Source: an uncultured Gammaproteobacteria bacterium
Lineage (GTDB): Bacteria; Patescibacteriota; Microgenomatia; UBA8517
Direction: 5' to 3'
Length of the DNA: 64,000 nucleotides
Assembly: GCA_964488535.1 (NCBI GenBank)
Contig: CAZAUT010000004.1
Span: forward strand, 3,409 to 67,408
Part shown: piece after piece, positions 2,003 through 58,660 of the stretch
Position numbering within the stretch: the stretch's first letter is position 1
How the letters are laid out: each line of letters opens with the position of its first letter
Program-made: the position numbers and the translations under genes
Notes under the pieces: generated by a model
Databases searched by the model: none
What the model saw: the letters and a program-made list of their open reading frames with translations, nothing else
Told to the model about the DNA's origin: nothing

Positions 2003-3844
2003 ATGAAAGTTTTTAACAAGATCATTCTTCTTTTTATTCTTTTCTTTGCTCTTGCGCTTCGTGTTTATGGGATCAATTGGGACCAAAATCAACACCTTCA
2101 TCCTGACGAGAGGTTTTTGACAATGACAACGGGTGCCATGGTTTGGCCGGAAACATTAGCCGAGTATTTAAGTCCTTCCGTTTCAAAACTAAATCCGTAT
2201 AACACAGGCACGATGTTTTATGTTTATGGAACACTTCCGACAACGATAGTCAAATATTTTTCCCGGTTCGAGTGGTTCGATGTCTTTCAATACAACAACA
2301 TTGCTCTAACCGGAAGATTGATCTCTGCGATCTTTGATATTGGGGTAGTTTACCTGATTTACTTGATCGCTAAAAATATATTTAACCAAAAGACCGGACT
2401 TTTGGCAGCGTTTTTATACTCCATATCGGTTCTCCCTATTCAGCTTTCCCACTTTTTTGCGGTTGATACGTTTTTGAACTTTTTCCTTGTTCTGTCTTTT
2501 TATTTTCTGGTTAAACTGTTAGATATTGCTTCGATTAAAAAAACATTGTCATTCCCGACTCGATCGGGAATCCATATGGAAAATATTTTTATTGATTCCC
2601 ACTTTTCCACCAGAGGCGGACTGTCGCGTGGGAATGACAGTGCTTGGTTCTATTCAGTGTTATTGAGCTTATCTTTCGGCGCCGCCCTTGCATGTAAGAT
2701 CTCCGCCCTGTATTTTCTCCCCGTAATTCTCTTGGGGTACCTTTTCTATTTCCTGAAGTTTCGCCCCCACCTACATACTACATACTATATACTATATACT
2801 GCTTTCTACCTGCTGCTTATTGCCTGCTTCGCGAGTGCGGCTTTCCGCATCCTTGATCCCCACGTTTTTACAGGCGGTCTTTTCCCGCCAAAAATAAGTC
2901 CGCAGTTTGTTCAAAACATTGAGTCGCTAAAGTCAATGGGGGTTAAGGGTTCAACTTTTCCTCCCGCAATCCAGTGGAACAACATAACTCCCATCATCTT
3001 TCCTTTAAAAAACATCGTTCTTTGGGGTTTGGGATTACCGTTGGGAGTTTTATCGGTTGTTGCAGTTATATACAAAATGATTGAAATGTTTATCGGTTTC
3101 TTTAAAGAGAATAATTTAAAAAGTTTCTATAATAATTTATTAGTAAAAGAATTTAATAGTGTGTTAATCCTCTTTTGGGTTCTCTTTCTTTTTTTCTACC
3201 AAGCCGTTCAACCAACCCCTTCCATGCGCTACTTCCTACCAATTTACCCTTTCGTTACCATTCTCTCCGCGCGTTTTTCCGAAAAATATTTGTTCCCAAA
3301 ATTTATTACTTCCCGCATACTACGTACTACATTCTACATACTACTGCTCTTATATCCCCTCTCCTTCCTCTATATTTACTCCCGTACCCATTCCCGCGTT
3401 TCGGCTTCTGAGTGGATTTATCAAAACATTCCGACCGGTTCCACTCTGTCTTGTGATGCATGGGATGATTGTCTGCCTTTGTCATTGGGAAAGGGACAAG
3501 TTATAAACCAATACAAAATTCTAACTTTGGAACCGTTCGTTCCCGACAGTATTGAAAAGGTAGGCAAATTTGAAAGCCAGTTAAAAGAGATTGATTATCT
3601 GATCTTTACCTCAAACCGCGCGTGGGGATCAATCCCCAAATGGCCGGAAAAATTCCCGTATATGGTCAAATTTTATGAAGACCTTTTTGCCGGAAAGTTT
3701 AACTTTGAAAAAGTTGCCGAAATAACATCTTACCCGACCATTCCGATACTGAACATTCCAATCCCCGACCAATCGTCGGAGGAAGCATTCACCGTCTACG
3801 ACCACCCGAAAGTGTTGATTTATAAAAACACCCAAAATAACTAG
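2003..3844 (+). CDS. GT-C fold membrane glycosyltransferase, GT39/PMT_2-like paralog 2 (carries in-frame repeat insertions)
   Basis: 613 aa. The N-terminal RVYGINWDQNQHLHPDERFLTMT motif is parallel to paralog 1. Relative to paralog 1 it has about 30 extra residues (TLSFPTRSGIHMENIFIDSHFSTRGGLSRGNDS), encoded exactly by an inverted-repeat element at 2557-2650. Confidence 0.6.
   Translation: MKVFNKIILLFILFFALALRVYGINWDQNQHLHPDERFLTMTTGAMVWPETLAEYLSPSVSKLNPYNTGTMFYVYGTLPTTIVKYFSRFEWFDVFQYNNIALTGRLISAIFDIGVVYLIYLIAKNIFNQKTGLLAAFLYSISVLPIQLSHFFAVDTFLNFFLVLSFYFLVKLLDIASIKKTLSFPTRSGIHMENIFIDSHFSTRGGLSRGNDSAWFYSVLLSLSFGAALACKISALYFLPVILLGYLFYFLKFRPHLHTTYYILYTAFYLLLIACFASAAFRILDPHVFTGGLFPPKISPQFVQNIESLKSMGVKGSTFPPAIQWNNITPIIFPLKNIVLWGLGLPLGVLSVVAVIYKMIEMFIGFFKENNLKSFYNNLLVKEFNSVLILFWVLFLFFYQAVQPTPSMRYFLPIYPFVTILSARFSEKYLFPKFITSRILRTTFYILLLLYPLSFLYIYSRTHSRVSASEWIYQNIPTGSTLSCDAWDDCLPLSLGKGQVINQYKILTLEPFVPDSIEKVGKFESQLKEIDYLIFTSNRAWGSIPKWPEKFPYMVKFYEDLFAGKFNFEKVAEITSYPTIPILNIPIPDQSSEEAFTVYDHPKVLIYKNTQNN
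2557..2650. repeat. MITE-like inverted-repeat element (TGTCATTCCCGAC ... GTGGGAATGACAG) inserted in-frame in a GT39 gene
   Basis: Termini are reverse complements of each other. The internal ACTCGATCGGGAAT also occurs at 36190-36207. The element is absent from the paralogous position in ORF 203-1861. Confidence 0.5.
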
Positions 3845-10946: not shown

Positions 10947-12926
10947 ATGGACAACATACTGAATGGGTTAAACAAACAACAAACAGAGGCGGTGATCTAC
11001 TCCGGCGAATCGCTTCTTGTATTGGCTGGCGCCGGAAGCGGAAAGACCAAAGTACTGACGCATAGGGCAGCTTATATGATCACACAAAACATGGCCGGTC
11101 CGGAGAACCTTTTGCTTCTTACTTTCACAAATAAAGCTGCAAATGAAATGAAGGAGCGCATTAACGGGTTACTTACGGCCTATCACGCCCTGTCTGTTGC
11201 CGGTCAGCCGTTTGCCGGCACCTTTCACTCCTTTTGTGCCCGAATACTGCGAATCGACGGTGAATGGATCGGGGTTCCCCGGGATTTCTTGATTTACGAC
11301 GACAGCGATCAGAAAACCCTTATAAGCCAAATTATCAAAGAATTGGGTCTTCCGAAGGAGTATTACAATCCGGGTTCCATCGCATCACAAATATCCGAAG
11401 CAAAAACCATGATGCTTTCTCCCCTTGAATACGCCGAAGTATCTTACTCAAGAGAAAAGGAAAAAATATTCAAAATTTATAACGAATACGAAAAAGCGTT
11501 AAAAAAAGCGGGAGCGCTTGACTTTGACGATCTGCTTTTACGCTGTGTAACTCTTTTATCCGAAAGTAAACCGGTTTTGGGTAAATGGCAAAAACGTTTG
11601 ACACATATTTTTGTTGACGAATGGCAGGATACAAATATCGCTCAATATAAATTGACGAACCTCCTTGTCGGAAAGAGAAAAAACCTAACAGCCGTCGGTG
11701 ATTTTTCTCAATCGATTTACAGCTGGAGAGGGGCAGATTATAAAAACCTTAATAAATTAAAAAAAGATTACCCCAATATAAAAGTAATTAACCTTGAGCA
11801 AAATTACCGCTCAACGCAGGTGATTTTAGACGCTGCAAATTGTGTTATCAAAAGAAACACCTCCCACCCCGTCCTGTCTCTCTGGACAGACAAAAAGGGC
11901 GGGGAAAAAATTACTCTCTATCGGGCAAGAAATGAACTTGACGAGGCGGATTATGTAGTTGATCAAGTAAATAAGTTAATTGGGGAATTAGACAAAAATA
12001 AAAACTCAATCAACCGGTTAACTAATCAACTTTCCTACTCCGATGTTGCTGTCCTCTACCGAACCAATGCCCAATCGCGTGTTTTGGAAGAAGCGCTTCT
12101 TCACGCCGGAATTCCTTACGTTCTCGTGGGTGGTGTGAGGTTTTATGAAAGACGCGAAGTCAAAGACGTCTTGGCATTTTTGCGGGTATTGGCTAACCCT
12201 AAAGATTCCGTTTCAAGAAATCGAATTGAGAAATTGGGAGTCAGAAGATTGGAAAAGTTTAAGGAACTTGCTAATAGCTTGCGGTCTACGGACAACAGCA
12301 AGAAGACTAAGGAAACGTCGGATAAATTTACCACCCTTGAACTTCTCGATGCTATCCTTCAAAACACCGACTATCTTTCAAAATACAAAGCCGAAACGGA
12401 AGAAAATCAAGCCCGCCTTGAAAACATAAAAGAACTGCGCTCCGTCGCCATGGAATTTCCCGACTTATATGAATTTCTTGAAAATGTAGCGTTAAAAGAG
12501 GCCGGGCCATCCTTCCCGCAATTAAATCGGGTCTCTGCGGAAAAGCCCCCGGACAATAAAAATTGTGTAACACTCATGACTCTCCACGCTGCCAAAGGTT
12601 TGGAGTTTTCCATTGTCTTCATTGTTGGTATGGAAGAAGGACTGTTTCCTCACTCAAGAAGCTTGTTCGAGACGTCTCAACTCGAAGAGGAAAGACGTCT
12701 TTGTTATGTTGGAATTACCCGTGCAAAAGAAAAACTGTACCTAACATACGCGGGCAGACGTCTGTTTTTCGGCCAAAAATCCTCCAACCCCCCAAGCAGG
12801 TTCATCATCGACATTCCAGAAGAACTTCTCGATGGATCGGAAACCCCTCTACGAAGTTTTATTAGAGATAATCCGTTTTTAGACAATGGTGACCTTGGCG
12901 ATTTTGATGACGATATTAATTTTTAA
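10947..12926 (+). CDS. ATP-dependent DNA helicase, PcrA/UvrD family (SF1)
   Basis: Motif I AGAGSGKT, Ia TFTNKAANEM, II VDEWQDTN, III GDFSQSIYSWRGA, IV VAVLYRTNAQSR, V/VI TLHAAKGLEF...VGITRAKEKLYL. Confidence 0.85.
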   Translation: MDNILNGLNKQQTEAVIYSGESLLVLAGAGSGKTKVLTHRAAYMITQNMAGPENLLLLTFTNKAANEMKERINGLLTAYHALSVAGQPFAGTFHSFCARILRIDGEWIGVPRDFLIYDDSDQKTLISQIIKELGLPKEYYNPGSIASQISEAKTMMLSPLEYAEVSYSREKEKIFKIYNEYEKALKKAGALDFDDLLLRCVTLLSESKPVLGKWQKRLTHIFVDEWQDTNIAQYKLTNLLVGKRKNLTAVGDFSQSIYSWRGADYKNLNKLKKDYPNIKVINLEQNYRSTQVILDAANCVIKRNTSHPVLSLWTDKKGGEKITLYRARNELDEADYVVDQVNKLIGELDKNKNSINRLTNQLSYSDVAVLYRTNAQSRVLEEALLHAGIPYVLVGGVRFYERREVKDVLAFLRVLANPKDSVSRNRIEKLGVRRLEKFKELANSLRSTDNSKKTKETSDKFTTLELLDAILQNTDYLSKYKAETEENQARLENIKELRSVAMEFPDLYEFLENVALKEAGPSFPQLNRVSAEKPPDNKNCVTLMTLHAAKGLEFSIVFIVGMEEGLFPHSRSLFETSQLEEERRLCYVGITRAKEKLYLTYAGRRLFFGQKSSNPPSRFIIDIPEELLDGSETPLRSFIRDNPFLDNGDLGDFDDDINF

Positions 12927-16461: not shown

Positions 16462-16937
16462 ACAGATTCGTTGAGTAATCGTTTTATCTTTTCCATGTTT
16501 TCCTCAATCAATTCTCTTTGTTCCGGCCAGAACATGGAGGGTAATTTGTTAATATCAAACCATTCCAATTGTAAATTACCTTCATCCGGCTGGAGATTTT
16601 GTTTTCCTGAAACATCACCTGTAACAAATAAAAAATAATGCGCAATTTTCCAATCTGTCTTTTTAAAGGAAAATCTTTCCTTAACTCCAAGTTTGCAAAT
16701 CATCTTTATATTTTGAAGTCCCGTTTCTTCGCAAATTTCTCTAATTGCAGTATTCTTAATCGTCTCCCCCCGTTCACGCGTACCTTTTGGAAGCACGTAG
16801 TCCTTATATTTGTCCGTTTTAAGAAGGGCAATTTTTAACTTTGCCCGATCTTTTCTAATTACTATTCCACCCGCAGTGGTAGAAACTGGAAAGTTAGAAT
16901 CGTTAGGTTTTATATACCAGCTTTTATCAATTTTCAT
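16458..16937 (-). CDS. NUDIX hydrolase
   Basis: Nudix box PKGTRERGETIKNTAIREICEETG. Start placed at MKIDKSW (ATG at 16935-16937), which overlaps the stop of the upstream helicase. The longer annotated ORF N-terminus lies inside the helicase gene. Confidence 0.7.
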   Translation of the reverse strand: MKIDKSWYIKPNDSNFPVSTTAGGIVIRKDRAKLKIALLKTDKYKDYVLPKGTRERGETIKNTAIREICEETGLQNIKMICKLGVKERFSFKKTDWKIAHYFLFVTGDVSGKQNLQPDEGNLQLEWFDINKLPSMFWPEQRELIEENMEKIKRLLNESV

Positions 16938-19900
16938 CCGTGTTACAGAATAACTTATACTCACAATTTTTACAAAGCATGTTGCCGGAGCATTTGAAAT
17001 CGCTTCCCTCAATTTGCTTTTTATAATCCAATATTTCTGCTTTTGCTTTTTCGATTTGTTCATAGGTCCTTGTTGTTGTAACAATTTTTGGCGTGTCAAA
17101 GTAATATAACGAAAGTTTAATATGATCCGGTTTTTGGTTAAAAGGATATTCGGGAATCGTCGACGCTGCCATTGCATAAATACACAGCTGCAAATCGGTG
17201 TCTGCTTCTTTTTGTGAAATCGGATTCGCGCCGGTTTTATAATCAATAATATGAATTCCGTTTCCGTCTTTATCTACCCTATCGATTTTCCCACCTACTT
17301 TTAATCCGGATAAATTTACAATAAACGGCTGTTCTGTTTGAATCGGCAATATTTTGGGGTTAAAAAGATTTTCAAGATAGTGTTTCAGAAACTTTTTAAT
17401 TTTCTCATAAGATCGTGTTTCATGAGCTTTACTTGTATATCCGTCTGATATCCATTTTTCTTCCAAAATTTTGTGCATCAACTCAAGTGTCGGCTTTTCC
17501 CCCGCTTTTACATCATCGTAAAACTTCTTCATAACTTGATGAAATGTGTTTCCAAAGCTTTGTGATGAGGTTGGGGGGGTCGGAAGTTTATAAATATAAT
17601 GCAACTTATAATGAAGCGGGCATATTCGGAAGGTCTCAATTTGAGAATAAGAAAGAAAATCTACATGAATAGGTAGGTGGTGGTTGGTTGTTGGTAGTTG
17701 GGACGGCTCGGTAGGCTCGTAATCCATGAAGCTAAGTTGTTCGCTCCGTTCTACATTCTTCATACTACCTTCTACACTTGTTCCAAGCGCTTCCCCCACA
17801 AACGGCGAAAGTTTCTTCTCCCTTTTTCCTTCTCCGTAATAATCAGCTGCGGTTAAATAAAGCCGCTCTTTTGCCCGAGTCATTCCGACATAAAAAAGCC
17901 GTCTTTCCTCCTGAATGTGATAGTCACCTTTCGGCAAGACTTCCTTGATAAGTTCGTCAGGGATAGGGATCTGCTCTCTTCTTTCGGTTGTGGGAAATCT
18001 TTGTCCTACAAGATTGATGAGAAATACGACTGGAAATTCTAAACCCTTGGAAGAATGAACCGTCAATATGTTTACTGCATTGACATCTCCCCAATCAGTG
18101 TCAGATGCCAGGGGTGACTCACCAAGTTCACTTGCAAGGTCTATCCAGTCAACAACGGCACGAACAGTTGCGTCTTCGTGTTCAACCTCGTAAGTTTTCA
18201 GTTTGTCAAAAAACTTGGAAATGTTTTTTGCCCGTCTTTCCGCCAGCGGTGTATCGGGGGAAAGAAGTTTTAAAATAAGCCCCGTGTCGTTTAGAAAATT
18301 ATAAAGAAGCTGTCCCGCCGGTTCTTTGTTTATTAATTTTTGTTGATCGCTGATTACTTTTAATAACTTGTTTAATTTTTCTCTTGTTTCGTCCGAAACG
18401 AAAATGTCGTTATTCTTTTCCAATGCCTCGAAAAGTGATAGATTTTTATACTTTGCGTAATTTGTTATCTTGATTAAATCTCGGGCGGGAATATCAAAAT
18501 ATTCTATTGAAAGTAAACGATACATCGACACCGAATCGTCAAAGTCATACAGAACTTTAAGGAATGAAATGAGATCCACTATTTCAGGCTGTTTGAAAAG
18601 CCGTCCGGGACCCAAGAATTGGTAAGGAATTCCGTGTCTGGACATGGCGCGCATGAAGGGCTCGGCGTGGTTATTGGCACGAACCAATATCGCGATGTCG
18701 CGATAATTTAGTTGATTAGTCAATTGAGTTAATTGGTTGATTGAGTTTTTTTCTTGTTTTCCTTGGTCAACTCTGTCAACTGGACTAACTAGTTCACTTA
18801 CTGTTTTTGCCACTGCTTCCGCTTCGTTTTCAACCCGGTCAAGATGTAAAAATTTAACCCGTTCATCAACTACGTCCGAATATTTAACTTGTGAAACCAA
18901 TTTCTTATTGATCTTTTCAACCACTTCCAACCGGTCAGGATTATTGTACTGGATCAACTTATATGACTTATCCAATATTTCCTGATCCGAACGGTAGTTT
19001 TTGGTTAATGTAATAACTTTTGCTTTCGGATAGTATTTTCGAAAGTACAAAGCATTAGAAACTGCAGCCCCACGGAAGCGATAAATGCTTTGGTCATCAT
19101 CTAAAACGACAGTAATATTTCCCTCCGGGGTCGGAGACCCCTCTTTCCGAGTCAGAGACTTCTCCAAGTCGGCGACCAGGTCGGAGACCTCTTTTCCCGC
19201 CAGCAATTTCACTAATTCGTTTTGCGAAATGTTGGTGTCCTGAAACTCATCAACCAAAATATATTTGAATTTATTTTGATATTCTTTCAGCACATTCGGG
19301 CGCTTACGAAATAGTTCCAAAGTTTTTACAATCAGATCCCCAAAATCCATCACCCCTTCTTTGGTTTTCAATTCATCATATGTTTTATACGCTCCCGCCA
19401 ACTCCTTCCATTTTTGCAGTTCAATCTCTTCATCCTTCGCCTCGCCGAAGTCCCGCTCGGTGGGACGAAGGCGGGGTTTTTCTTTTTTAATTTTTGACTT
19501 TTCATTTTGATTTTTGCTTGCCCCTCGAAGCCCTGCTGAGCGGGGCGAAGTGGGGAGTTTTAAGTTTACCCAATCAAGGTATTGATTGGGTAAAATATCC
19601 TCATCCTGCAACCTTGAAAAATGAGTCAGCATCCCGTCAATAAATTTCGTAGGGTTTCCTAAAGGACGGAAATATTCAAGTTCAAATTTGAAAAGATTTT
19701 TTCTGAAAAACTGGATCGATTCGGCTTGGGTGTTTAACTTGTATTTCGGATTAAGTCCGATATGAACTGCTTCGTTTTTTAAAATTCTATCGCAAAAGGA
19801 GTGAAAGGTGGAAATCCACATTTGCGTGTACCCCAAAGGAAGTGCAACATCAATTCGCTCCTGCATTTCGGCAGCTGCTTTTTCGGTGAAAGTCAGAGCC

Positions 19901-20064
19901 AAAATTTCCGGCGGCTTGGCAAGTTTTTTTTCAATCAGAAATTTTACCCGCTCGGTAATGACCGTCGTCTTCCCCGTCCCGGCACCTGCAATAATCATTA
20001 AGGGACCATTTTTATATTCAACTGCTTTCTTTTGTTCCTCGTTTAACTTTCTATCACCCGACAT
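16927..20064 (-). CDS. UvrD-family SF1 helicase fused to a C-terminal PD-(D/E)XK (Cas4/AddB-like, Cys-cluster) nuclease; AddA/RecB-like
   Basis: 1045 aa. Helicase motifs AGAGTGKT, TFTEKAAAEM, VDEFQDTN, GDDDQSIYRFRGA, IAILVRAN, TVHSSKGLEF and GMTRAKERLYL. The C-terminus has IIDYKTG plus CSGNMLCKNCEYKLFC (nuclease with 4-Cys cluster). It contains several in-frame GC-rich repeat insertions. Confidence 0.75.
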   Translation of the reverse strand: MSGDRKLNEEQKKAVEYKNGPLMIIAGAGTGKTTVITERVKFLIEKKLAKPPEILALTFTEKAAAEMQERIDVALPLGYTQMWISTFHSFCDRILKNEAVHIGLNPKYKLNTQAESIQFFRKNLFKFELEYFRPLGNPTKFIDGMLTHFSRLQDEDILPNQYLDWVNLKLPTSPRSAGLRGASKNQNEKSKIKKEKPRLRPTERDFGEAKDEEIELQKWKELAGAYKTYDELKTKEGVMDFGDLIVKTLELFRKRPNVLKEYQNKFKYILVDEFQDTNISQNELVKLLAGKEVSDLVADLEKSLTRKEGSPTPEGNITVVLDDDQSIYRFRGAAVSNALYFRKYYPKAKVITLTKNYRSDQEILDKSYKLIQYNNPDRLEVVEKINKKLVSQVKYSDVVDERVKFLHLDRVENEAEAVAKTVSELVSPVDRVDQGKQEKNSINQLTQLTNQLNYRDIAILVRANNHAEPFMRAMSRHGIPYQFLGPGRLFKQPEIVDLISFLKVLYDFDDSVSMYRLLSIEYFDIPARDLIKITNYAKYKNLSLFEALEKNNDIFVSDETREKLNKLLKVISDQQKLINKEPAGQLLYNFLNDTGLILKLLSPDTPLAERRAKNISKFFDKLKTYEVEHEDATVRAVVDWIDLASELGESPLASDTDWGDVNAVNILTVHSSKGLEFPVVFLINLVGQRFPTTERREQIPIPDELIKEVLPKGDYHIQEERRLFYVGMTRAKERLYLTAADYYGEGKREKKLSPFVGEALGTSVEGSMKNVERSEQLSFMDYEPTEPSQLPTTNHHLPIHVDFLSYSQIETFRICPLHYKLHYIYKLPTPPTSSQSFGNTFHQVMKKFYDDVKAGEKPTLELMHKILEEKWISDGYTSKAHETRSYEKIKKFLKHYLENLFNPKILPIQTEQPFIVNLSGLKVGGKIDRVDKDGNGIHIIDYKTGANPISQKEADTDLQLCIYAMAASTIPEYPFNQKPDHIKLSLYYFDTPKIVTTTRTYEQIEKAKAEILDYKKQIEGSDFKCSGNMLCKNCEYKLFCNTDEN

Positions 20065-20731: not shown

Positions 20732-20755
20732 GTGCCGTAGTATAGACTACGGCAC
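20732..20755. repeat. perfect 24-nt palindrome GTGCCGTAGTATAGACTACGGCAC (REP/terminator-like), copy 1
   Basis: 10-bp stem with 4-nt loop. Identical or near-identical copies occur at 21330-21353 and 33615-38, with a split copy at 21871-21973. Confidence 0.7.
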
Positions 20756-21311: not shown

Positions 21312-21329
21312 TTTAATATATTGTGTTTA

Positions 21330-21353
21330 GTGCCGTAGTATAGACTACGGCAC
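21330..21353. repeat. 24-nt palindrome copy 2
   Basis: Exact GTGCCGTAGTATAGACTACGGCAC. Confidence 0.7.
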
Positions 21354-21375
21354 TAAGATTTATAAATATTATTTC

Positions 21376-26522: not shown

Positions 26523-27806
26523 ATGAACAATAAAGGGGTCTTGTTTACAATTCTTTTTCTCATCAACATTGTCCTTTTTGCAAAACTTAAATTTTTTATC
26601 CCCCAACTTTTTGGGGGTGCTAACCTAATTGATTTTCAGGCTTACTACCGATTGGCAAAAGATCTTATAATCGGCACTAACCCCTATGCGGTTTCTTATA
26701 TGCAAACACTTGGACCTCCGAGCGTGTTATTTTATTTTCTACCTTTTTCAATATTTAATTACCCAACCGCAAAGTTTCTATTCACTATAATTAATGTTAT
26801 TTGTGGGTTCGCAATGTGCCTTGTGTTGGCAAAATATTTTTTTCGAAACACCCACCGTCCGAGGAGTGCTTCGCACACCTCGGAGGTGAAAACGCCAAAT
26901 TTATACAAAATAAATATATTTTTGATGCTCACGCTTCTTTTTTTCTCCTCTTTTCCTGTCAGATTTTCGATAGAAAACGGACAACCGAATTTGGTAATTT
27001 GTTACTTGGTTGGTTTGTTAATTTGTAGTAAAAAAGGCAGATTCTGGACAAGACGGGTACCGTATGGTAACCCGTCAAGTCAGAATGACGACTCTACGAA
27101 AGTTCCCTACATTCTTGCATCTATTATTATTCTGAAAACAAATTATATTATTTCACTGGTATCGCTTCTTAAGAAGAATAAGCAATTGGTAATTATCACT
27201 TTTCTTTCCATTCTCTGTATTCTTATATTCTTATTCCCCATAATTAATCCCTCCCTATACACTTACTACCTAGGCCACAAAATAGGTAATTTATTTCCGT
27301 CGGTAAGCAGTTCCACACAACTTAATTATTATAACCAATCAATTCCAGCAAGGTTAAATTTCTTGGGATTAGGAAACGTTTCAATAATGCTTTACGCAGT
27401 GGTAATTATATTTATTCTTTGGATAGTTTATAAATCTCAAAATTTACTTCTCGGAATTATATCCTCAATCATTCTTTCTCCTGTTTCGTGGCAGCACTAC
27501 TACGCCGTTTTGTTTCCAATATTTGTTTTGTGTTTTGTAACCATTTTTTGCAGCAAGAAGATCCTGAAACCTCGTCAAGCGCGGTTGGCGCAAGTTCAGG
27601 ATGACAGACGACGGAAAATAAATCTTGTTCTGGTTTTAACATCTTTCTTTTTTTGGTGGATTGAGTTTCCGTTTCTTCACAACGCCCCCGTAAACTTTTT
27701 TACCGCAATCTTTTCATCACACCATCTGATATCTGCTTTTATATTGTTCTTGGTAATATATAAAAATTTGTTTCGCCCACATTCAGCTTCAAATGATGTA
27801 AAATAG
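26523..27806 (+). CDS. polytopic membrane protein, GT87/DUF2029-like (polyprenyl-phosphate-mannose dependent glycosyltransferase fold)
   Basis: N-terminal LIDFQAYYRLAKDLIIGTNPY resembles the DUF2029 signature. It contains an in-frame dispersed-repeat insertion at 27059-27091 (encoding RRVPYGNPSSQNDDS). Confidence 0.45.
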   Translation: MNNKGVLFTILFLINIVLFAKLKFFIPQLFGGANLIDFQAYYRLAKDLIIGTNPYAVSYMQTLGPPSVLFYFLPFSIFNYPTAKFLFTIINVICGFAMCLVLAKYFFRNTHRPRSASHTSEVKTPNLYKINIFLMLTLLFFSSFPVRFSIENGQPNLVICYLVGLLICSKKGRFWTRRVPYGNPSSQNDDSTKVPYILASIIILKTNYIISLVSLLKKNKQLVIITFLSILCILIFLFPIINPSLYTYYLGHKIGNLFPSVSSSTQLNYYNQSIPARLNFLGLGNVSIMLYAVVIIFILWIVYKSQNLLLGIISSIILSPVSWQHYYAVLFPIFVLCFVTIFCSKKILKPRQARLAQVQDDRRRKINLVLVLTSFFFWWIEFPFLHNAPVNFFTAIFSSHHLISAFILFLVIYKNLFRPHSASNDVK

Positions 27807-33598: not shown

Positions 33599-33614
33599 GA
33601 CATAATTATTTTAG

Positions 33615-33638
33615 TGCCGTAGTCTATACTACGGCACC
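33615..33638. repeat. 24-nt palindrome copy 4 (GTGCCGTAGTCTATACTACGGCAC variant)
   Basis: Lies between convergent genes, so it is terminator-like. Confidence 0.7.
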
Positions 33639-35897: not shown

Positions 35898-36251
35898 AAT
35901 ACAAGTATAAATAATAAACAGAAAACAGTAAACCCTCCTTCGTCCCGCCGTGCAGGACTTCGGGCGGATAAGGCAATAAACAGTAAATAAGAAACCTGAA
36001 GACAATACCTTTCCACAGCCAAAGCCTAGTGCCATACCATTTCAAACGCTTCGCGTTCGGATTGTCTGGTTCGGTCCTGCCTGCAGACAGGTCATCCCCC
36101 GCCAAGCAGTGGTTTTCTTGATCTAACGATATGCAAGAAGCACAAAACAGAAACGGAATTTGCTGCACCGGTTTCGCACTTTGTCACCAAACTCGATCGG
36201 GAATGACAGGGTGGTATTTCTGCGCAAACACGAAGCTGGTAATATTTCTTT

Positions 36252-41252: not shown

Positions 41253-42353
41253 TTGCAGACAGTGTCGGGAAATTTATTTGTTATGAATATTTTTGAACAT
41301 ATCATACTTCCTTTCTTGGTACCGTTTCTCCTGTCTTATTGGATAACTCCATCTGTAATCAGATTTGCAGAAAAAGCGGGTATTATTGATGACCCGTCAA
41401 AAAACAAACATCCGAAAGTAATTCACACCCGCCCTACCCCGAGAGGTGGTGGAATCGCTGTCTTTTGGTCAACTTTTATTGGTATTTTAATCTTTCTTCC
41501 TTTAGACAGGCATGTTGCTGCAATACTTATAGGGGCAGCCATATTAACTTTGATGGGGTTTTTGGATGACAAATATAATATTAACCCCTATCTCAGAATA
41601 GGTATTCAGTTTGCAGCTGCGGCCATACCAATCGCTTCAGGCATCGGAATTGGCTTTCTCTCCAACCCTCTGGGGGGTGGCATAATCGACCTTGCCAATC
41701 CGTATTTTTCGATTAATATTTTTGGTGTTTCGAAAAATATTTGGTTTGCAGGCGATGTTTTTGCTCTTTTTTGGATAGTTATACTGATGAATTTTCTTAA
41801 CATGGGAGCTAAAGGTGTTGACGGACAGCTACCCGGTGTTGCCGGCGTTGCTGCACTATCGATTTCCGCGCTTTCTTTAAGATTTTCTGCCGACATTACC
41901 GAATGGCCTGTTATCATTTTGTCTTTAATTGTTGCCGGGGCCTTTTTTGGCTTTTTGCCGTATAACGCATTTCCGCAAAGAATAATGCCTTCATTTTCCG
42001 GATCGAATCTGGCAGGATATTATCTTGGAATACTTTCAATTCTTTCTACTACCAAAGTCGGAACCCTGTTGATCGTTTTAGGAATTCCTTTGATTGATAC
42101 GGGCTACACCATTGTCCGCCGGATGGCTTCGGGAAAATCCCCTGTCTGGGGAGACAGAGGACATTTGCACCACAAACTACTGGATCTGGGGTTGTCTAAA
42201 AAACAAGTCTCTTATTTTTACTGGATATCTTCGGGGCTTCTTGGTATTTTTTCGATATTTCTTACCAGTACTTACAAATTGTATACTGTTATCGGACTGG
42301 TTGCCTTATTGGGAGGATTTTTTATAATTTATTCGAAAAAATCACGCACGTAG
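41253..42353 (+). CDS. polyprenyl-phosphate N-acetylhexosamine-1-phosphate transferase (WecA/MraY family, Glycos_transf_4)
   Basis: Conserved DDxxD-like GFLDDKYNINP, NFLNMGAKGVDGQLPGVAGVAA and PxxxxG motifs, about 10 transmembrane segments. Confidence 0.75.
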   Translation: MQTVSGNLFVMNIFEHIILPFLVPFLLSYWITPSVIRFAEKAGIIDDPSKNKHPKVIHTRPTPRGGGIAVFWSTFIGILIFLPLDRHVAAILIGAAILTLMGFLDDKYNINPYLRIGIQFAAAAIPIASGIGIGFLSNPLGGGIIDLANPYFSINIFGVSKNIWFAGDVFALFWIVILMNFLNMGAKGVDGQLPGVAGVAALSISALSLRFSADITEWPVIILSLIVAGAFFGFLPYNAFPQRIMPSFSGSNLAGYYLGILSILSTTKVGTLLIVLGIPLIDTGYTIVRRMASGKSPVWGDRGHLHHKLLDLGLSKKQVSYFYWISSGLLGIFSIFLTSTYKLYTVIGLVALLGGFFIIYSKKSRT

Positions 42354-50085: not shown

Positions 50086-51555
50086 TTATTTACTGACACC
50101 ATAAGGTGAAAGCCCTGTTCTTATTTCTGAAGAGAGATTTTTCAAGGTTTTTACATAATCCGTCCCTCCGCCTTTGGACAATCCATCTATAACTTTTTTG
50201 TACGCAGCGTTCACAACGCTGTTAATCCCTTTTTCTCCGTCATACGTTTTGTCGGCCAAGTACCACGACGACGCTACGGGTGCTAAAGCAATTATTGAAC
50301 CATAATATCTGTCGTTAATTAACTTATCCTTATAAAATATCTTTGCAGAAGCCGGAGGAACGAGCCCGATGTCCTTATAATATTGCGACATTTTGTCAAA
50401 GGTGTCGTTTTGTGATAAATATATAAGAAAGCTCCACGCGAGTTCCCTGTCTTTCGATTTGTTTGATACAGCTCTTGCCCAGTATGTTGCATATGATACG
50501 TCGGGTTCGCTTGGATCGTCCTTTCTGACCTGAGGTAGCAAAACAGAGCGAAACTTCAGCGACGGATTAATCTCCTTTATTTTGTTAACTTCCCTTCCGG
50601 GAGCAAAATACATTGCAACCTTTCCTTCCGCGAACGCCGTTGTGGAATCCGGAAGTGTATTGTCCCAGGTCTTATGGTTTCTGAAAAATTCGGTGAACGT
50701 CTTCATCGCTTCGTTCGAATTAGATCCGGAGGGAGAAAAGAGATCCGACTTGTTTTGGAGCATAAGAAGAGCCACAATCTCCTGCCAATAATCAACGTTG
50801 TCGGTTAAGCCCATTGACGATCCGGACTGCAATATTGTACTTTTGCTGTCCCGTGTTGTTAAATTAATCGCTGTTTCAACAAATTGATCCCAGGTTCTTG
50901 GGTGAATGCTTGCAGATCTTAAAAATATATCGTCGTTTATGAAAAGTGTTATTGCGTCGAACTCGGAAGGCAGAGCAACAATCCCCTCCGGAGTTGCAAG
51001 ATCCTTTGTAATAACAGGATAATATTCTTTTATAAAAGAATCTTTGCTGTAAGCATTTTCCGTCAAAACATCCATATATTTATACATTGCAGGTTTCCAG
51101 CTGTTATGAATGGAAAAGATATCCGGCCCCCTTCCCTCTTTCAGTGAATTTGTAAGCCTTTCACCAAAATCGGTCTCTGATTGGGTTATTAGAGTAATTT
51201 TTGCTCCGGGATTTCCGGCAACATATTCATCGATGAGTTTTTGCATCACAGCCTCATTCCCTCCAAGCTCCCACCATACAATTTCACCCTTTTTCTGGCT
51301 GGTTGGATTTTTGGAAAAAGGGTTATTTTTCAGAAAAATATACGCCAGGGGAATGAGTAAAACTATCAATGAAAAAAAAGGTATAAATTTCTTGTATATT
51401 TTACCGAAGGAAAATTTCGGACGGGGACGGTAAATAAACTCTTCATGTTTCTGAAGGGGTGGCACAGAGCCTTCCGGCGGAGTGTGCGACACTGCGGAAG
51501 CTGTTCCCAAAGGCTCGCTTTTGTTCTGATTTAATGTAGAATTTGAATTATCCAT
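50086..51555 (-). CDS. membrane-anchored extracellular solute-binding protein (SBP_bac_1-like)
   Basis: N-terminal low-complexity region plus transmembrane segment, then a periplasmic-binding-protein type II-like region (GEIVWWELGG...ITLITQSETDFGERL...). No adjacent permease or ATPase genes. Confidence 0.5.
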   Translation of the reverse strand: MDNSNSTLNQNKSEPLGTASAVSHTPPEGSVPPLQKHEEFIYRPRPKFSFGKIYKKFIPFFSLIVLLIPLAYIFLKNNPFSKNPTSQKKGEIVWWELGGNEAVMQKLIDEYVAGNPGAKITLITQSETDFGERLTNSLKEGRGPDIFSIHNSWKPAMYKYMDVLTENAYSKDSFIKEYYPVITKDLATPEGIVALPSEFDAITLFINDDIFLRSASIHPRTWDQFVETAINLTTRDSKSTILQSGSSMGLTDNVDYWQEIVALLMLQNKSDLFSPSGSNSNEAMKTFTEFFRNHKTWDNTLPDSTTAFAEGKVAMYFAPGREVNKIKEINPSLKFRSVLLPQVRKDDPSEPDVSYATYWARAVSNKSKDRELAWSFLIYLSQNDTFDKMSQYYKDIGLVPPASAKIFYKDKLINDRYYGSIIALAPVASSWYLADKTYDGEKGINSVVNAAYKKVIDGLSKGGGTDYVKTLKNLSSEIRTGLSPYGVSK

Positions 51556-51706
51556 ACTTGTTCACATCAATGTTAACATAAGATGAATAAAAGAGGGAAG
51601 ATGGCAAGACGTATGGAAAGAAACAAAGATGCCGTAGCGTTGCCGGGAAAGCAATGTTTTTGTTAATTGTCCTTTATCGGGCATTGTGTACTAAGTTAAA
51701 GAAAAT

Positions 51707-56306: not shown

Positions 56307-56341
56307 GTATCATGTATCAAGTATCATGAAATTATTACGTT

Positions 56342-58660
56342 ATGGATAAAACATACAACCCCAAAGAACATGAAAAAAAGATTTATGAGATGTGGGAAAC
56401 GTCAAACGTCTTTAGTCCAAAAATTCCTTTGGAGAAAAAGGCCCTCCGGGTCGGAGACCCTCCGGGTCGGAGACCGTTCACAATAATTCTCCCCCTTCCC
56501 AACGCAAACGACCCAATGCATATGGGGCATGCTCTTTTTACAATCCAGGACATAATGATCCGCTACCACAGGATGCTTGGCGACCCAACGCTTTGGCTAC
56601 CCGGTGGAGACCACGCGGGAATTGAAACACAGTTTGTTTTTGAAAAACATTTGAAAGAAGAAGGAAAATCGCGATTTGATTTTGACCGCGAAACGCTTTA
56701 TAAAAAAATAAAAGAATATTCCGACAAGAACAAAGACCTTAATAAAAACCAGATGAAACTCCTTGGTTTTTCCATGGATTGGAGCCGGTATCATTATTCC
56801 CTTGAGCCGGAAATTGTCGAAAAAGTTCTTGCTACGTTTCGAAAACTTCATGACGACGGACTTGTATACAGGGGTGAACGGATTGTTAATTACTGCACTT
56901 TCTGCGGAACCGCTTTTTCGGAGCTTGAAGTTGAATATAAAGAAAAAGACGACTTTTTATACTTCCTTGATTATAAAAGTATAAAAATAGCAACAACCCG
57001 AACCGAAACAATATTTGCCGATGTCGCCGTTGCCTTCAACCCCAAAGACAAAAGATATCAAGGGTTGATAGGTAAAACCGCCACGATTCCCTTGATAGAT
57101 ATTAAGATCCCAATAATCTCCGATGATAATATCGATATCAAATTCGGAACCGGAGCTCTTAAGGTAACTCCCGCCCACGATCCGTTGGATTTTGAGATCG
57201 GAGTCAAAAACAGCCTTAAAACAATAAGTATCATCCAAACCAACGGACAATTGTCCGATAACCCACGGGTCCCCCAGGAATTGCGCGGTCTTTATGTTAA
57301 CCAAGCAAGAGAGAAAACACTGGAACTTCTAACCAAAGCGGGAGCTCTAATCAAAAAGGAACCCCTAAAACACTCCGTCGGGACTTGTTATAAATGCGGT
57401 CGGACAATAGAACCTCTGGTAATACCGCAATGGTTTGTTAAAACAAAACCGCTTGCAAAACCCGCAATAGATGCCATCAAAAAAGGCAAAACGAAAATAT
57501 TTCCGAAGAAACGATTTGAAAAACTGTATTTCGACTGGATGGAAAATATCCGCGACTGGAATATCAGCCGGCAAATTGTGTGGGGTCCCAGAATTCCCGT
57601 TTGGTATTGTTTGGAGTGTAATCCCGATATTCAAATTAATTTTATTGATAAAAACAAATCTGTAGTTTTCGGATCTTATAAAGATCTGGTAAATAATTAC
57701 AGTTTTGAAATTATAGCCAACGGATTACAGACAATAAGCGCGCCAAAAGATGCCAACTATCATTTGAGTGATAATAATTGTCCCAGGTGTGGCTCCGCCC
57801 ACGTCTTACAGGAAACGGACACGTTTGACACCTGGTTTCTTAGCGGACAGTGGCCCCTCACCACGCTCGGGATAAACGTCAACAGCCCTGAGAATAGCTC
57901 GCCTGATTTTAAGTATTTTTACCCAACTTCTGTTCTTGATACCTTGTGGGATATCTTGTTTTTCTGGGTTGGCAGAATGATGATGCTTGGAATTTATCTG
58001 ACAGGGAAAGCGCCGTTTGATGTTGTACACATTCATTCAAGGGTTGTTGATAAATTCGGAAAGAAGATGAGCAAAAGCAAAGGAAATGTTGTTGACCCGA
58101 TAACCGTTGTTAACCAGCATGGCGCCGACGCTCTTCGCTGGGCTTTGGTTGTTGGGATAGCACCTGCATCCGACATTGCGATAAGCGATGAAAAAATAAT
58201 CGGGGCAAGAAATTTCGCAAACAAGCTTTGGAACATGTCGCGATTTATCAATATGAAACTACAAGATTCGGGGATTAAATCCTACGACAATCTCCCCTCT
58301 TACGAAGACAATAATAAGGATTTAAATAGCGACGATAAAAAAATTATCAAAAAATTAAAAGCAATTATAAAAACGGTTACGGAAAATATTGAAGGGTATA
58401 AATTCGGTTTGGCCGCTGAAAAACTTTACGGGTTTGTGTGGCACGACTTTGCTGATTCTTACATTGAATCGACAAAAGAGCGTCTTGCAAGTTGTGACAA
58501 AACTCCTTTAATTGTTTTACGGCACGTCTTATACAACAGCCTTAAACTTCTTCATCCCTTCATGCCCTTTGTAACGGAGGCAATTTGGCAGGAGATGAAC
58601 GATCAGAGGAAACATTCTGACAAGATGTTGATAGAATCGAAATGGCCGGAAATAAAATAG
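56342..58660 (+). CDS. valS: valine--tRNA ligase (compact form)
   Basis: HMGHA (HIGH), TLWLPGGDHAGIETQ, TTRTETIFADVAVAFNPKDKRY, KMSKSKGN. There is a GC-rich 16-nt tandem duplication at 56443-56476. Confidence 0.8.
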   Translation: MDKTYNPKEHEKKIYEMWETSNVFSPKIPLEKKALRVGDPPGRRPFTIILPLPNANDPMHMGHALFTIQDIMIRYHRMLGDPTLWLPGGDHAGIETQFVFEKHLKEEGKSRFDFDRETLYKKIKEYSDKNKDLNKNQMKLLGFSMDWSRYHYSLEPEIVEKVLATFRKLHDDGLVYRGERIVNYCTFCGTAFSELEVEYKEKDDFLYFLDYKSIKIATTRTETIFADVAVAFNPKDKRYQGLIGKTATIPLIDIKIPIISDDNIDIKFGTGALKVTPAHDPLDFEIGVKNSLKTISIIQTNGQLSDNPRVPQELRGLYVNQAREKTLELLTKAGALIKKEPLKHSVGTCYKCGRTIEPLVIPQWFVKTKPLAKPAIDAIKKGKTKIFPKKRFEKLYFDWMENIRDWNISRQIVWGPRIPVWYCLECNPDIQINFIDKNKSVVFGSYKDLVNNYSFEIIANGLQTISAPKDANYHLSDNNCPRCGSAHVLQETDTFDTWFLSGQWPLTTLGINVNSPENSSPDFKYFYPTSVLDTLWDILFFWVGRMMMLGIYLTGKAPFDVVHIHSRVVDKFGKKMSKSKGNVVDPITVVNQHGADALRWALVVGIAPASDIAISDEKIIGARNFANKLWNMSRFINMKLQDSGIKSYDNLPSYEDNNKDLNSDDKKIIKKLKAIIKTVTENIEGYKFGLAAEKLYGFVWHDFADSYIESTKERLASCDKTPLIVLRHVLYNSLKLLHPFMPFVTEAIWQEMNDQRKHSDKMLIESKWPEIK

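What the first reader, a model, noticed from the sequence alone, without database searches (positions are those of the whole stretch)
11995..12032. Two different UvrD-family helicase genes share an in-frame DNA repeat at the equivalent position upstream of motif IV
The PcrA/UvrD gene (plus strand, 11995-12032: AAAAATAAAAACTCAATCAACCGGTTAACTAATCAACT) and the helicase-nuclease gene (minus strand, 18705-18757, reverse complement AAAAAAACTCAATCAACCAATTAACTCAATTGACTAATCAACT) share about 30 nt of near-identical sequence. In each gene it encodes NSINRLTNQL or NSINQLTQLTNQL immediately before the motif IV segment (VAVLYRTN / IAILVRAN). The rest of the two genes is highly diverged at DNA level. This suggests either gene conversion or insertion of the same short element at homologous positions.
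Basis: seen in the sequence. Interest (0 to 1): 0.55.

Follow-up and report, generated by a model that had tools for sequence, protein, structure and literature searches.

The report
Translated palindromic insert in two helicases
Two distantly related DNA-helicase genes of a Woesebacteria (CPR) genome carry copies of one short AT-rich, hairpin-like DNA element, translated as an extra surface loop; it recalls the in-frame palindromic elements of Rickettsia and is probably a passenger.

Summary
The PcrA-like gene (10947-12926, +) and the UvrD-helicase/PD-(D/E)XK-nuclease gene (16927-20064, -) share AAAAACTCAATCAACC-NN-TTAACT-[9 nt]-AATCAACT, in frame, just before motif IV. The proteins are only 28% identical.

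It is not a conserved SF1 motif. About 65% of 120 Woesebacteria homologues of each family have a minimal loop there, and solved PcrA has a 12-residue gap.

The segment belongs to a family of AT-rich, quasi-palindromic inserts with a 9-nt or 17-nt periodicity (48 nt in PcrA, 75 nt in the nuclease-helicase). These inserts are scattered on both gene trees. They are conserved at synonymous sites across genomes. They also occur in frame in an unrelated arginyl-tRNA synthetase gene. Only one of six frames is open, and every copy uses it.

Intergenic hairpins in Mucilaginibacter share the core and the termini.

In other genomes the same helicase loop holds unrelated GC-rich hairpins. Such hairpins also lie inside other genes of this window.

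Best reading: an in-frame palindromic repeat like the Rickettsia palindromic elements or MITEs, tolerated in a permissive loop. Recent gene conversion between the two paralogues is not favoured, because each window copy scores higher against copies in other genomes. The insertion mechanism and the reason for recurrent use of this loop remain inferred.

The parts
10947..12926 (+). PcrA/UvrD-type SF1 helicase gene (659 aa), host of copy 1
   Evidence: ORF, translation. Homologues carry PF00580/PF13361 and are named PcrA in Candidatus Woesebacteria. Solved PcrA 1pjr matches at E 1e-148.
11985..12032 (+). Inserted segment of copy 1 (48 nt, codons 347-362, ELDKNKNSINRLTNQL): A-rich centre plus 3' arm
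   Evidence: Absent from the empty-site allele L259 (P0003, a close homologue); replaced by a 42-nt GC hairpin at the same junction in the sister lineage L087. 12-residue gap against PcrA 1pjr. Low-occupancy alignment columns 347-359. AlphaFold pLDDT below 50 for residues 348-359.
11955..11984 (+). Helix-coding DNA (VVDQVNKLIG) that is partly complementary to the insert's 3' arm; it acts as a 5' pseudo-arm and looks largely native
   Evidence: AGTTGAT/ATCAACT and AGTTAA/TTAACT pair in the fold of 11949-12040 (dG -14.7, z -1.67). GTAGTT and the Q..LI codons are shared with the empty-site allele. Direct repeat D2 to the plus strand of copy 2.
12000..12031 (+). Blocks shared with copy 2: 16-mer 12000-12015, TTAACT 12018-12023, AATCAACT 12024-12031
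16927..20064 (-). UvrD-family helicase fused to a C-terminal PD-(D/E)XK nuclease (1045 aa; AddA/AdnB-like), host of copy 2
   Evidence: ORF, translation. Homologues carry PF00580, PF13361 and PF12705. 28% identical to the PcrA-like protein.
18709..18783 (-). Inserted segment of copy 2 (75 nt, codons 428-452, PVDRVDQGKQEKNSINQLTQLTNQL): 5' arm, A-rich centre and 3' arm
   Evidence: Absent from the empty-site allele L260 (P0126, a close homologue); replaced by a GC hairpin in L087. Low-occupancy columns 431-449. The fold of 18700-18810 pairs the two arms (dG -16.8, z -1.96).
18705..18747 (-). 3' arm of copy 2, an internal tandem repeat (17-nt unit x 2.5). It holds the 9 nt (CAATTGACT, 18718-18726) that copy 1 lacks
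   Evidence: Tandem Repeats Finder, 80% matches, score 51; alignment A3
18688..18705 (-). Perfect 8+8 palindrome TATCGCGA-CA-TCGCGATA, starting one codon (AAT, Asn453) after the insert; it encodes YRDIAI at the start of the motif IV strand
   Evidence: Read directly. L085 has TACCGCGACATCGCGGTA, with changes on both sides that keep the palindrome. Only two sequences, so not tested statistically.

Best explanation
The shared sequence is two copies of one family of short, AT-rich, quasi-palindromic DNA elements that sit in frame inside genes and are translated.

A full copy is about 75-90 nt. It has three parts:
- a 5' arm made of GTTRAYCAA-type units, read as VNQ or VDQ;
- an A-rich centre ending in AAAAACTCAATYAAC, read as (K)KNSIN;
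- a 3' arm made of CAATTRACT/AATCAACT units, read as QLT or NQL, roughly the reverse complement of the 5' arm.

The outer ends are AGTTRAY...RTYAACT. Copies change length in 9-nt steps by slippage.

In the helicase-nuclease gene the whole element is inserted (18709-18783). In the PcrA-like gene only the centre and the 3' arm are extra (11985-12032). There the native helix-coding DNA, which happens to resemble the 5' arm, takes that arm's place.

Both copies lie in the surface loop between the last helix before motif IV and the motif IV strand. This loop tolerates length changes.

What is shown:
- the anatomy of the element;
- its sporadic phylogenetic distribution;
- its nucleotide-level conservation;
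- its presence in a third, unrelated gene (ArgRS);
- occupation of the same loop by unrelated GC-rich hairpins in other genomes.

What is inferred:
- the element reaches new genes by a non-homologous, transposition-like or microhomology-assisted event;
- it then spreads between orthologous alleles of different lineages by homologous recombination;
- selection keeps only copies that land in the single open frame in a permissive loop;
- the peptide itself is a neutral or nearly neutral passenger.
For: 1. Not a family motif. 78 of 120 PcrA homologues and 76 of 120 helicase-nuclease homologues have a minimal loop. Only a handful in each family carry the KNSIN..LT.QL insert. Solved PcrA has a 12-residue gap there.

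2. Sporadic distribution. On NJ trees built without the loop columns, by the automatic regex classing, 9 carriers in PcrA need at least 8 state changes and 5 carriers in the helicase-nuclease family need at least 5. That classing over-calls PcrA (at least 2 of the 9 are regex false positives; 5 have the long insert) and under-calls the other family. P0001, the window protein, sits in a clade whose other members have LITKGYEF.

3. DNA-level conservation. Window PcrA and L083 PcrA are 63% identical overall but 0.76-0.85 across the insert, above the 0.83 maximum of the sampled windows elsewhere. Window helicase-nuclease against L084 gives 0.79-0.83 against a 0.64 window mean (0.633 overall). The core AAAAACTCAATYAAC uses the same codons in 5 copies (both window genes, L083, L085, L116) and with one mismatch (AAG for AAA) in L084. 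The chance of identical codons for the two window copies is about 6e-5 (my calculation).

4. All pairs of CPR copies give local-alignment z-scores of 4.5-23 against shuffles.

5. Third gene family. Contig L116 carries DLVNQVNQDNQGKKNSINSVNRLTQLTKQ in the C-terminal domain of an ArgRS. The alignment to solved ArgRS structures stops at the insert's 5' edge.

6. Specificity. The pattern AGTTRAYY...RRTYAACT found only these elements in 0.92 Mb of Microgenomates DNA.

7. Only 1 of 6 frames is open in every copy, and that is the frame used.

8. Empty-site and sister alleles define the junctions. They show a different hairpin, 42 nt and GC-rich with a 13-bp perfect stem (z -6.4), at the same PcrA junction in the closest relative.

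9. GC-rich hairpins of the same families occur elsewhere in the same genomes. Some are in frame, read in other frames, and some are intergenic.

10. Intergenic hairpins in Mucilaginibacter contigs (dG -39 to -54) share the core and the termini TAGTTGATT/AATCAACTA.

11. The AlphaFold model places the insert in a low-confidence loop between helix 330-350 and strand 367-371.
Against: - No transposase, no clear target-site duplication and no filled/empty pair among near-identical strains was found, so mobility is inferred, not shown.
- In CPR DNA every copy seen lies in a gene. Apart from one ArgRS, all are in the same loop of the two helicase families. The helicase loci were fetched because they encode these helicases, which biases the sample. 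Even so, no intergenic or other-gene copy appeared in 0.92 Mb.
- Hairpin stability of the AT-rich element is modest and uneven (z -0.5 to -4.6).
- In PcrA the 5' arm is native DNA. This fits a local inverted-duplication origin as well as it fits insertion.
- The Mucilaginibacter hairpins were found with a pattern taken from the window. They are built of repeated units, so their similarity beyond the pattern is not independent evidence of homology.
- Peptide-based searches for further host proteins returned nothing. The number of host gene families is therefore unknown.
Confidence: 0.6

Rival explanations
1. Gene conversion between paralogues. The insert arose once in one helicase gene and was copied into the other gene of the same genome by short-patch recombination. 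The genes are 6.7 kb apart and in opposite orientation.
For: Both genes of this genome carry the AT-rich type, whereas other genomes have discordant loop types: L081 has the AT-rich type in PcrA and a GC hairpin in the other gene. The 3' junctions are at exactly homologous residues, two codons before Y-x-D. The exact 16-mer is shared. Synteny of the two genes is conserved in 22 Microgenomates loci.
Against: Each window copy scores higher against copies in other genomes or genes than against its partner (79, 52 and 49 against 43). The 5' halves differ, and the 5' junctions differ by about 7 residues of the helix. Flanking DNA offers no long homology: the proteins are 28% identical. The ArgRS copy cannot be explained this way.
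Confidence: 0.12
2. Local origin. The insert is made on the spot by replication slippage and template switching (inverted duplication) of the AT-rich helix-coding DNA. The two genes look alike because similar starting sequence gives similar products.
For: The 3' arm of the PcrA insert is roughly the reverse complement of the native helix DNA just upstream. Tandem periodicity of 9 and 17 nt and 9-nt indels between copies. A palindrome sits close after the insert: an 8+8 one in the window helicase-nuclease gene and L085, separated from the insert by one codon in the window copy, and an 8-bp stem with a 6-nt loop in the L081 and L083 PcrA genes. Short loops such as LINHQPLIT in other PcrA homologues are built from similar AATCAYC/TTAAT units read in another frame.
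Against: Independent origins would not give identical 16-22-nt cores in PcrA, the helicase-nuclease and ArgRS, whose flanks are unrelated. The helicase-nuclease helix DNA does not resemble either arm. This may still be how the family first arose.
Confidence: 0.1
3. A functional peptide module. The insert encodes a motif, for example an amphipathic segment or a partner-binding site, that is selected at the protein level and exchanged between lineages.
For: All copies keep the same frame, and hydrophobic residues (I/L) recur every 3-4 positions.
Against: Only one frame is open, so a constant frame needs no functional selection. Synonymous sites are conserved, which points to DNA-level relatedness. 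Most homologues lack the insert, and sister lineages carry unrelated peptides at the same place, such as HHPRGGSSSHLGG. The structure model gives low confidence there.
Confidence: 0.07
4. A chance match of low-complexity A/C/T-rich sequence.
For: The bare 16-mer is common in large databases: 120 or more chance hits in viral contigs, none with arms. A common substring of 16 nt or more arises in 1% of codon shuffles.
Against: The two further blocks, the homologous position, the identical frame and the recurrence in seven or more other loci.
Confidence: 0.01

Closest known systems
Rickettsia palindromic elements (RPEs)
   Same: Short palindromic repeats found in frame inside unrelated housekeeping genes. 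They are translated as extra peptide segments that appear compatible with the host fold, and are sporadic between related genomes (review PMC10969869, read). Here there are in-frame copies in three enzyme families, located in a surface loop.
   Different: No sequence relation to RPEs was tested or is expected. These inserts are shorter (48-90 nt against about 150 bp). They are AT-rich with 9-nt periodic units. The copy number seen is low, and nearly all copies are in one loop of two paralogous helicases. The host is a CPR bacterium, not Rickettsia.
Bacterial MITEs (Correia/nemis, ERIC, cyanobacterial MITEs)
   Same: Small, non-coding-capable elements with terminal inverted repeats that can form hairpins, sometimes making in-frame fusions (PMC10969869). 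The termini AGTTRAY...RTYAACT and the intergenic Mucilaginibacter relatives fit this picture.
   Different: No target-site duplication, no parent IS or transposase, and no dispersed multi-copy distribution within one genome was shown. My recollection that the Correia terminal repeat begins TATAGTGGATTAA, resembling TAGTTGATTAA here, comes from memory and was not checked.
[quoted passage not shown]
   Same: Coding repeats whose DNA has dyad symmetry, with a punctate phylogenetic distribution suggesting horizontal transfer (PMC2996958).
   Different: PARCELs are 25-residue units in long tandem arrays within ORFs of unknown function, often membrane proteins. Here a single short unit sits inside conserved enzymes. 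No sequence relation was tested.
GC clusters and 'byp' elements of yeast mitochondrial genes
   Same: GC-rich hairpins inside coding DNA of AT-rich genomes. This resembles the GC-rich hairpins that occupy the same helicase loop in L087 and L081 and lie in other genes of this window. The comparison is from my own knowledge.
   Different: Byp elements are skipped by the ribosome. Here all copies keep an open frame, which argues for translation.
Inteins of UvrD-family helicases
   Same: A mobile element occupying the homologous site (motif III, DQ|SIY) in both helicase families of this same clade.
   Different: Inteins are 362-367 aa, self-splicing, and target a conserved motif. The two families' inteins are only 28% identical, so the colonisation is old. 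The loop insert is about 90-100 residues downstream and has no splicing features.

Membership tests
   Minimal loop in 78/120 and 76/120 homologues; 12-residue gap against PcrA 1pjr
In-frame palindromic repeat (RPE-like kind) | The same repeat found in frame in unrelated genes | tested here: met
   PcrA, helicase-nuclease and ArgRS copies. Only three host families were found.
In-frame palindromic repeat (RPE-like kind) | Dyad symmetry or hairpin potential of the DNA | tested here: inconclusive
   The arms pair in the folds, but z-scores range from -0.5 to -4.6. The terminal inverted pattern is specific to the elements.
In-frame palindromic repeat (RPE-like kind) | Insert lies on the protein surface and leaves the fold intact | tested here: met
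   It lies between a helix and the motif IV strand, with pLDDT below 50. All conserved motifs are intact. This rests on a model only; no experiment.
In-frame palindromic repeat (RPE-like kind) | Sporadic presence among close relatives | tested here: met
   Tree mapping; empty and differently filled sites in close homologues
MITE | Terminal inverted repeats | tested here: met
   AGTTRAY...RTYAACT in all full copies. In PcrA the 5' repeat is native DNA.
MITE | Target-site duplication | tested here: inconclusive
   Ends read TA-GTT...AAC-TA in several copies, but the exact junctions cannot be fixed from the available empty sites.
MITE | Many dispersed copies in one genome | tested here: not met
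   Two copies in 64 kb, both in helicase loops. None elsewhere in 0.92 Mb of related loci. Whole genomes were not available.
MITE | A related autonomous element or transposase | not tested
   ORFs of the window and of the loci were not screened for transposases.
Paralogue gene conversion tract | The two copies in one genome are each other's closest relatives, with identity extending into the flanks | tested here: not met
   Scores of 43 between the window copies against 79, 52 and 49 to copies elsewhere; flanks are diverged.

The most novel reading that the evidence does not exclude
The pre-motif-IV loop of UvrD-family helicases is a preferred landing site for hairpin-forming DNA. At least three unrelated hairpin families (one AT-rich, two GC-rich) have entered it repeatedly in two paralogous genes. 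The AT-rich family would belong to a cross-phylum group of TA-flanked palindromic elements (TAGTTGATT...AATCAACTA). In Bacteroidota (Mucilaginibacter) these live between genes. In CPR bacteria they survive only as translated inserts in essential enzymes. This would imply a still unknown site-selective insertion route, for example microhomology to the AT-rich helix-coding DNA or a palindrome-induced break at the YxDIAIL codons.
Probability: 0.2. Interest if true: 0.65.

Novelty: new member of a known kind. Interest (0 to 1): 0.5.

Why it matters
If correct, CPR/Patescibacteria genomes, which are small and thought to be poor in repeats, carry in-frame palindromic repeats of the kind so far best known from Rickettsia. 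These repeats remodel surface loops of core replication and repair enzymes and of translation enzymes.

Practical consequences:
- It explains part of the "extra" loop sequence that complicates alignments and structure prediction of CPR proteins.
- It gives markers of recombination between lineages that cannot be cultured.
- The helicase loop offers a natural series of empty, AT-filled and GC-filled alleles in which the origin and turnover of such inserts can be studied.

It does not point to a new biochemical function.

Tried and rejected
- Peptide search of the 5.8-billion-protein collection with concatenated insert peptides: 1079 word-sharing candidates, none at E <= 10.
- Exhaustive phmmer with the 30-residue insert: 0 hits. 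The query is too short and compositionally biased.
- The genome-contig scan with a PcrA profile returned mainly more distant Microgenomates and Saccharibacteria, all with short loops. It showed conserved synteny but yielded no further copies.
- Viral contigs: hits to the 16-mer are chance, with no arms.
- Rfam: no family matches the hairpins.
- Intein-driven co-conversion. Inteins sit at the homologous motif III site in both families. They are only 28% identical between families, and the roughly 300 nt between intein site and loop is not elevated in identity. Dropped as an explanation.
- IHF site idea. AATCAACCGGTTA and AATCAACCAATTA fit WATCAANNNNTTR as I recall it, but several other copies do not. 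Not pursued.
- Intragenomic homogenisation judged from shared C variants in the two window copies. The same variants occur in other genomes. Rejected.
- PARCELs were considered and set aside: they are tandem 25-residue arrays in other kinds of proteins.
Full report
**1. What is in the window**

ORF 10947-12926 (+) encodes a 659-aa PcrA/UvrD-type helicase. ORF 16927-20064 (-) encodes a 1045-aa UvrD-family helicase with a C-terminal PD-(D/E)XK nuclease domain. Homologues of both carry the expected Pfam domains, and those that are named come from Candidatus Woesebacteria. The window is 34-43% G+C. The two proteins are 28% identical. They lie convergently, about 4 kb apart (the two loop inserts are 6.7 kb apart), and this arrangement is kept in 22 Microgenomates loci.

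**2. The observation**

The shared blocks are AAAAACTCAATCAACC, then two differing bases, TTAACT, nine extra bases in the nuclease-helicase gene, then AATCAACT. Both are read as KNSIN-x-LT-(QLT)-NQL and end two codons before the Y-x-D-(V/I)-A-(V/I)-L strand of motif IV.

- The 24-nt pattern occurs only at these two places in the window, with none expected.
- The exact 16-mer alone is not overwhelming: a common substring of 16 nt or more arose in 5 of 500 codon shuffles.
- The genes share an even longer exact match, 18 nt, at the conserved TFHSFC motif. The statement that everything else is diverged is therefore too strong.
- The loop match is special because no protein conservation explains it.
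- With this genome's codon usage, identical codons for the shared residues have a probability of about 6e-5 (my calculation from the frequencies).

**3. Not a helicase motif**

I aligned 120 homologues of each family. Between the helix E-A-D-F-V-V-x-Q-I-x-x-L and motif IV, 78 PcrA and 76 helicase-nuclease proteins have a minimal loop such as LITKGYEF. The rest have inserts. Solved Geobacillus PcrA aligns with a 12-residue gap exactly here. An AlphaFold model (mean pLDDT 69) puts residues 348-359 in a low-confidence loop between helix 330-350 and strand 367-371.

**4. Recurrent insert types in both families**

The window's type (KNSIN..LT.QL, AT-rich) recurs in both families:
- PcrA homologues: P0020, P0026/P0054, P0036, and in short form P0040 and P0053.
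- Helicase-nuclease homologues: P0169, P0182, P0186 and others.

A second class is GC-rich:
- NPPS(R/H)KASEGLA occurs in at least 16 helicase-nuclease homologues.
- HPRGG...HLGG occurs in three PcrA homologues and, partially (HPRGGG only), in one helicase-nuclease homologue.

On NJ trees built without the loop columns these types are scattered. By the automatic regex classing, the AT-rich type needs at least 8 state changes for 9 PcrA carriers and at least 5 for 5 carriers in the other family; that classing includes at least two false positives in PcrA (P0082, P0057) and misses helicase-nuclease carriers such as P0127 and P0208. The window's PcrA lies in a clade that otherwise has LITKGYEF.

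**5. DNA of the inserts**

I fetched eleven homologous loci: seven carrying an AT-rich loop insert, two carrying GC-rich inserts only, and two empty-site alleles.

- The AT-rich inserts share the core AAAAACTCAATYAAC with the same codons in the two window genes, L083 (PcrA), L085 (helicase-nuclease) and L116 (ArgRS); L084 (helicase-nuclease) has AAGAACTCAATTAACC, one mismatch.
- Window PcrA against L083 PcrA is 63% identical overall but 0.76-0.85 across the insert. That is as high as the most conserved catalytic motifs.
- Copies differ by 9-nt indels and 17-18-nt duplications.
- The 5' part (GTTRAYCAA units, read VNQ/VDQ) is roughly the reverse complement of the 3' part. Folds pair the two arms, with z-scores from -0.5 to -4.6.
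- A pattern built on the ends (AGTTRAYY...RRTYAACT) finds only these elements in 0.92 Mb of Microgenomates DNA.
- Only one of the six frames is open in each copy. This explains why all are read the same way and argues that they are translated.

**6. Junctions**

I compared filled alleles with empty-site alleles (L259 for PcrA, L260 for the other gene) and with the closest relative, L087.

- In PcrA the extra DNA is 11985-12032 (48 nt). The upstream "arm" at 11955-11984 is largely native helix-coding DNA.
- In the helicase-nuclease gene the extra DNA is 18709-18783 (75 nt) and contains both arms.
- In L087, both proteins of which are about 76% identical to the window's, the same two junctions hold GC-rich hairpins instead. 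One is CACCCCCGAGGTG-11 nt-CACCTCGGGGGTG in PcrA (dG -30, z -6.4). The other is AACCCTCCTTCG...GGAAGGGTT in the other gene.

The site therefore turns over between close relatives.

**7. Beyond helicases**

One metagenome scan with AAAAACTCAATYAACN{3,4}TTAAC gave 47 loci. Most are chance hits, with two exceptions.

- L116 (37% G+C) carries DLVNQVNQDNQGKKNSINSVNRLTQLTKQ in frame in the C-terminal domain of an arginyl-tRNA synthetase. Alignments to solved ArgRS structures stop at its 5' edge, and the conserved C-terminal helix resumes after it. Its DNA scores 52-71 against the helicase copies, with z 11-20.
- Ten contigs of 41-47% G+C, at least two of them Mucilaginibacter by flanking proteins, hold the core sequence in intergenic DNA; in eight of them it is the 3' arm of a long hairpin (dG -39 to -54), while L100 and L131 show no matching arm. 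They share the core, the repeat units and the ends TAGTTGATT/AATCAACTA. These were found with a pattern taken from the window and are internally repetitive, so I treat homology as plausible but not shown.

Viral contigs gave only chance matches. Rfam has no matching family.

**8. The GC-rich hairpins are a wider habit of these genomes**

- The AACCCTCCTTCG start recurs at another variable site of PcrA (about residue 516) in L087 and L088, read in a different frame. It also occurs at window 35931, probably upstream of a gene.
- Similar hairpins lie in frame in the window's helicase-nuclease gene (19423-19487, 19507-19567), in a membrane protein (about 26860-26895) and in other ORFs.

The helicase loop is thus one of several permissive sites that collect hairpin-forming repeats.

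**9. Interpretation**

The best-supported reading is an in-frame palindromic repeat of the RPE/MITE kind (PMC10969869) that is tolerated in a surface loop.

The two window copies are not each other's nearest relatives. Their mutual score is 43, against 79 for PcrA-PcrA across genomes and 52/49 for the helicase-nuclease copy against ArgRS or another helicase-nuclease copy. Recent conversion between the two genes is therefore not the favoured cause, though an old transfer between paralogues cannot be excluded.

A local origin by slippage and inverted duplication fits the PcrA anatomy and may be how the family began. It cannot explain near-identical cores in genes with unrelated flanks.

A selected peptide function is unlikely. 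The distribution is sporadic, sister lineages carry unrelated peptides at the same place, and synonymous sites are conserved.

**10. What remains open**

- No transposase, target duplication or strain-level presence/absence pair was found.
- Apart from ArgRS, every CPR copy seen is in this one loop of two paralogues. The sampling bias towards helicase loci is strong.
- Why three unrelated hairpin families use the same junction is unexplained. Two features could matter: a palindrome close after the insert (TATCGCGACATCGCGATA in the window, one codon downstream; TACCGCGACATCGCGGTA in L085), and the resemblance of native PcrA helix DNA to the element's 5' arm. Neither was tested.

**Verdict**

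This is a new family of a known kind of element in a new host group. It is of moderate interest.

Noticed in passing
window 19423-19487, 19507-19567, 19112-19159 and 19179-19199 (inside the helicase-nuclease gene): GC-rich hairpin-forming segments read in frame (KIKKEKPRLRPTERDFG, PTSPRSAGLRGASK, SLTRKEGSPTP). They are absent from most homologues. Folding energies are -28 and -24 kcal/mol in a genome of about 38% G+C. A GGTCGGAGACC motif is repeated directly about 50 nt apart.
   Followed up: partly
window about 26860-26895 (ORF 26523-27806 +), 51443-51511 (ORF 50089-51561 -), 56428-56489 (ORF 56330-58657 +), 41415-41466, 35925-35982: Further GC-rich hairpins or short tandem motifs inside coding ORFs, or just upstream of a gene in the case of 35925-35982. 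Window 26876 (CACCTCGGAGGTG palindrome, peptide THRPRSASHTSEV) resembles the PcrA loop hairpin of L087. Window 35931 starts with AACCCTCCTTCG, like the L087/L081 helicase-nuclease loop insert. Window 56428-56489 repeats CCCTCCGGGTCGGAGA twice and shares GGTCGGAGACC with the helicase-nuclease gene.
   Followed up: partly
window 20732-20755, 21327-21356, 33614-33637: Three intergenic copies of a hairpin GTGCCGTAGT-ATAG/CTAT-ACTACGGCAC (10-13-bp stem, 4-nt loop), like a terminator or REP element.
   Followed up: no
window 19565-19594 (inside the helicase-nuclease gene): Perfect 13-bp stem with a 4-nt loop, TTTACCCAATCAAGGTATTGATTGGGTAAA, in coding DNA (LPNQYLDWVN).
   Followed up: no
Homologues P0022, P0054 (PcrA) and P0149, P0173, P0232 (helicase-nuclease): Inteins of 362-367 aa are inserted at the homologous motif III site (DQ|SIY) in both helicase families. 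The two families' inteins are homologous over their full length but only 28% identical, about the same as their hosts.
   Followed up: partly
L087 17703-17715 / L088 4752-4764 (PcrA about residue 442), L088 4975-5020 (PcrA about residue 516), L081 11311-11323: Other variable loops of the PcrA gene in related genomes also hold GC-rich palindromes (CACCCGCGGGGTG..., AACCCTCCTTCGTTCCGACCAAGTCGGAACCACGGAAGGG, CACCCCCGGGGTG). Several loops of this gene therefore collect such elements.
   Followed up: partly
L089, L091, L106, L113, L120, L125, L126, L130 (metagenome contigs; at least two are Mucilaginibacter): Long AT-rich intergenic hairpins built of tandem GAGTTGGATTAAGTTGATT-type units and their complement (dG -39 to -54 kcal/mol). 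They lie upstream of, or between, genes such as cystathionine beta-synthase and topoisomerase I. I know of no described family that matches, and Rfam gave none.
   Followed up: partly
L256 about 3280-3320 and L257 about 1735-1775 (PcrA loops LITNHQPLIT and LTINHQPLII): Short loop inserts recurring in about seven PcrA homologues are made of CTAATCAC/ATCAACCATTAAT units. These resemble the AT-rich element read in another frame and may be remnants of it.
   Followed up: partly
window 11219-11245 / 19784-19810: The longest exact DNA match between the two helicase genes is 18 nt (CACCTTTCACTCCTTTTG) at the conserved TFHSFC motif, with identical codons at six consecutive residues. By rough estimate this is probably chance given the protein conservation.
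   Followed up: partly
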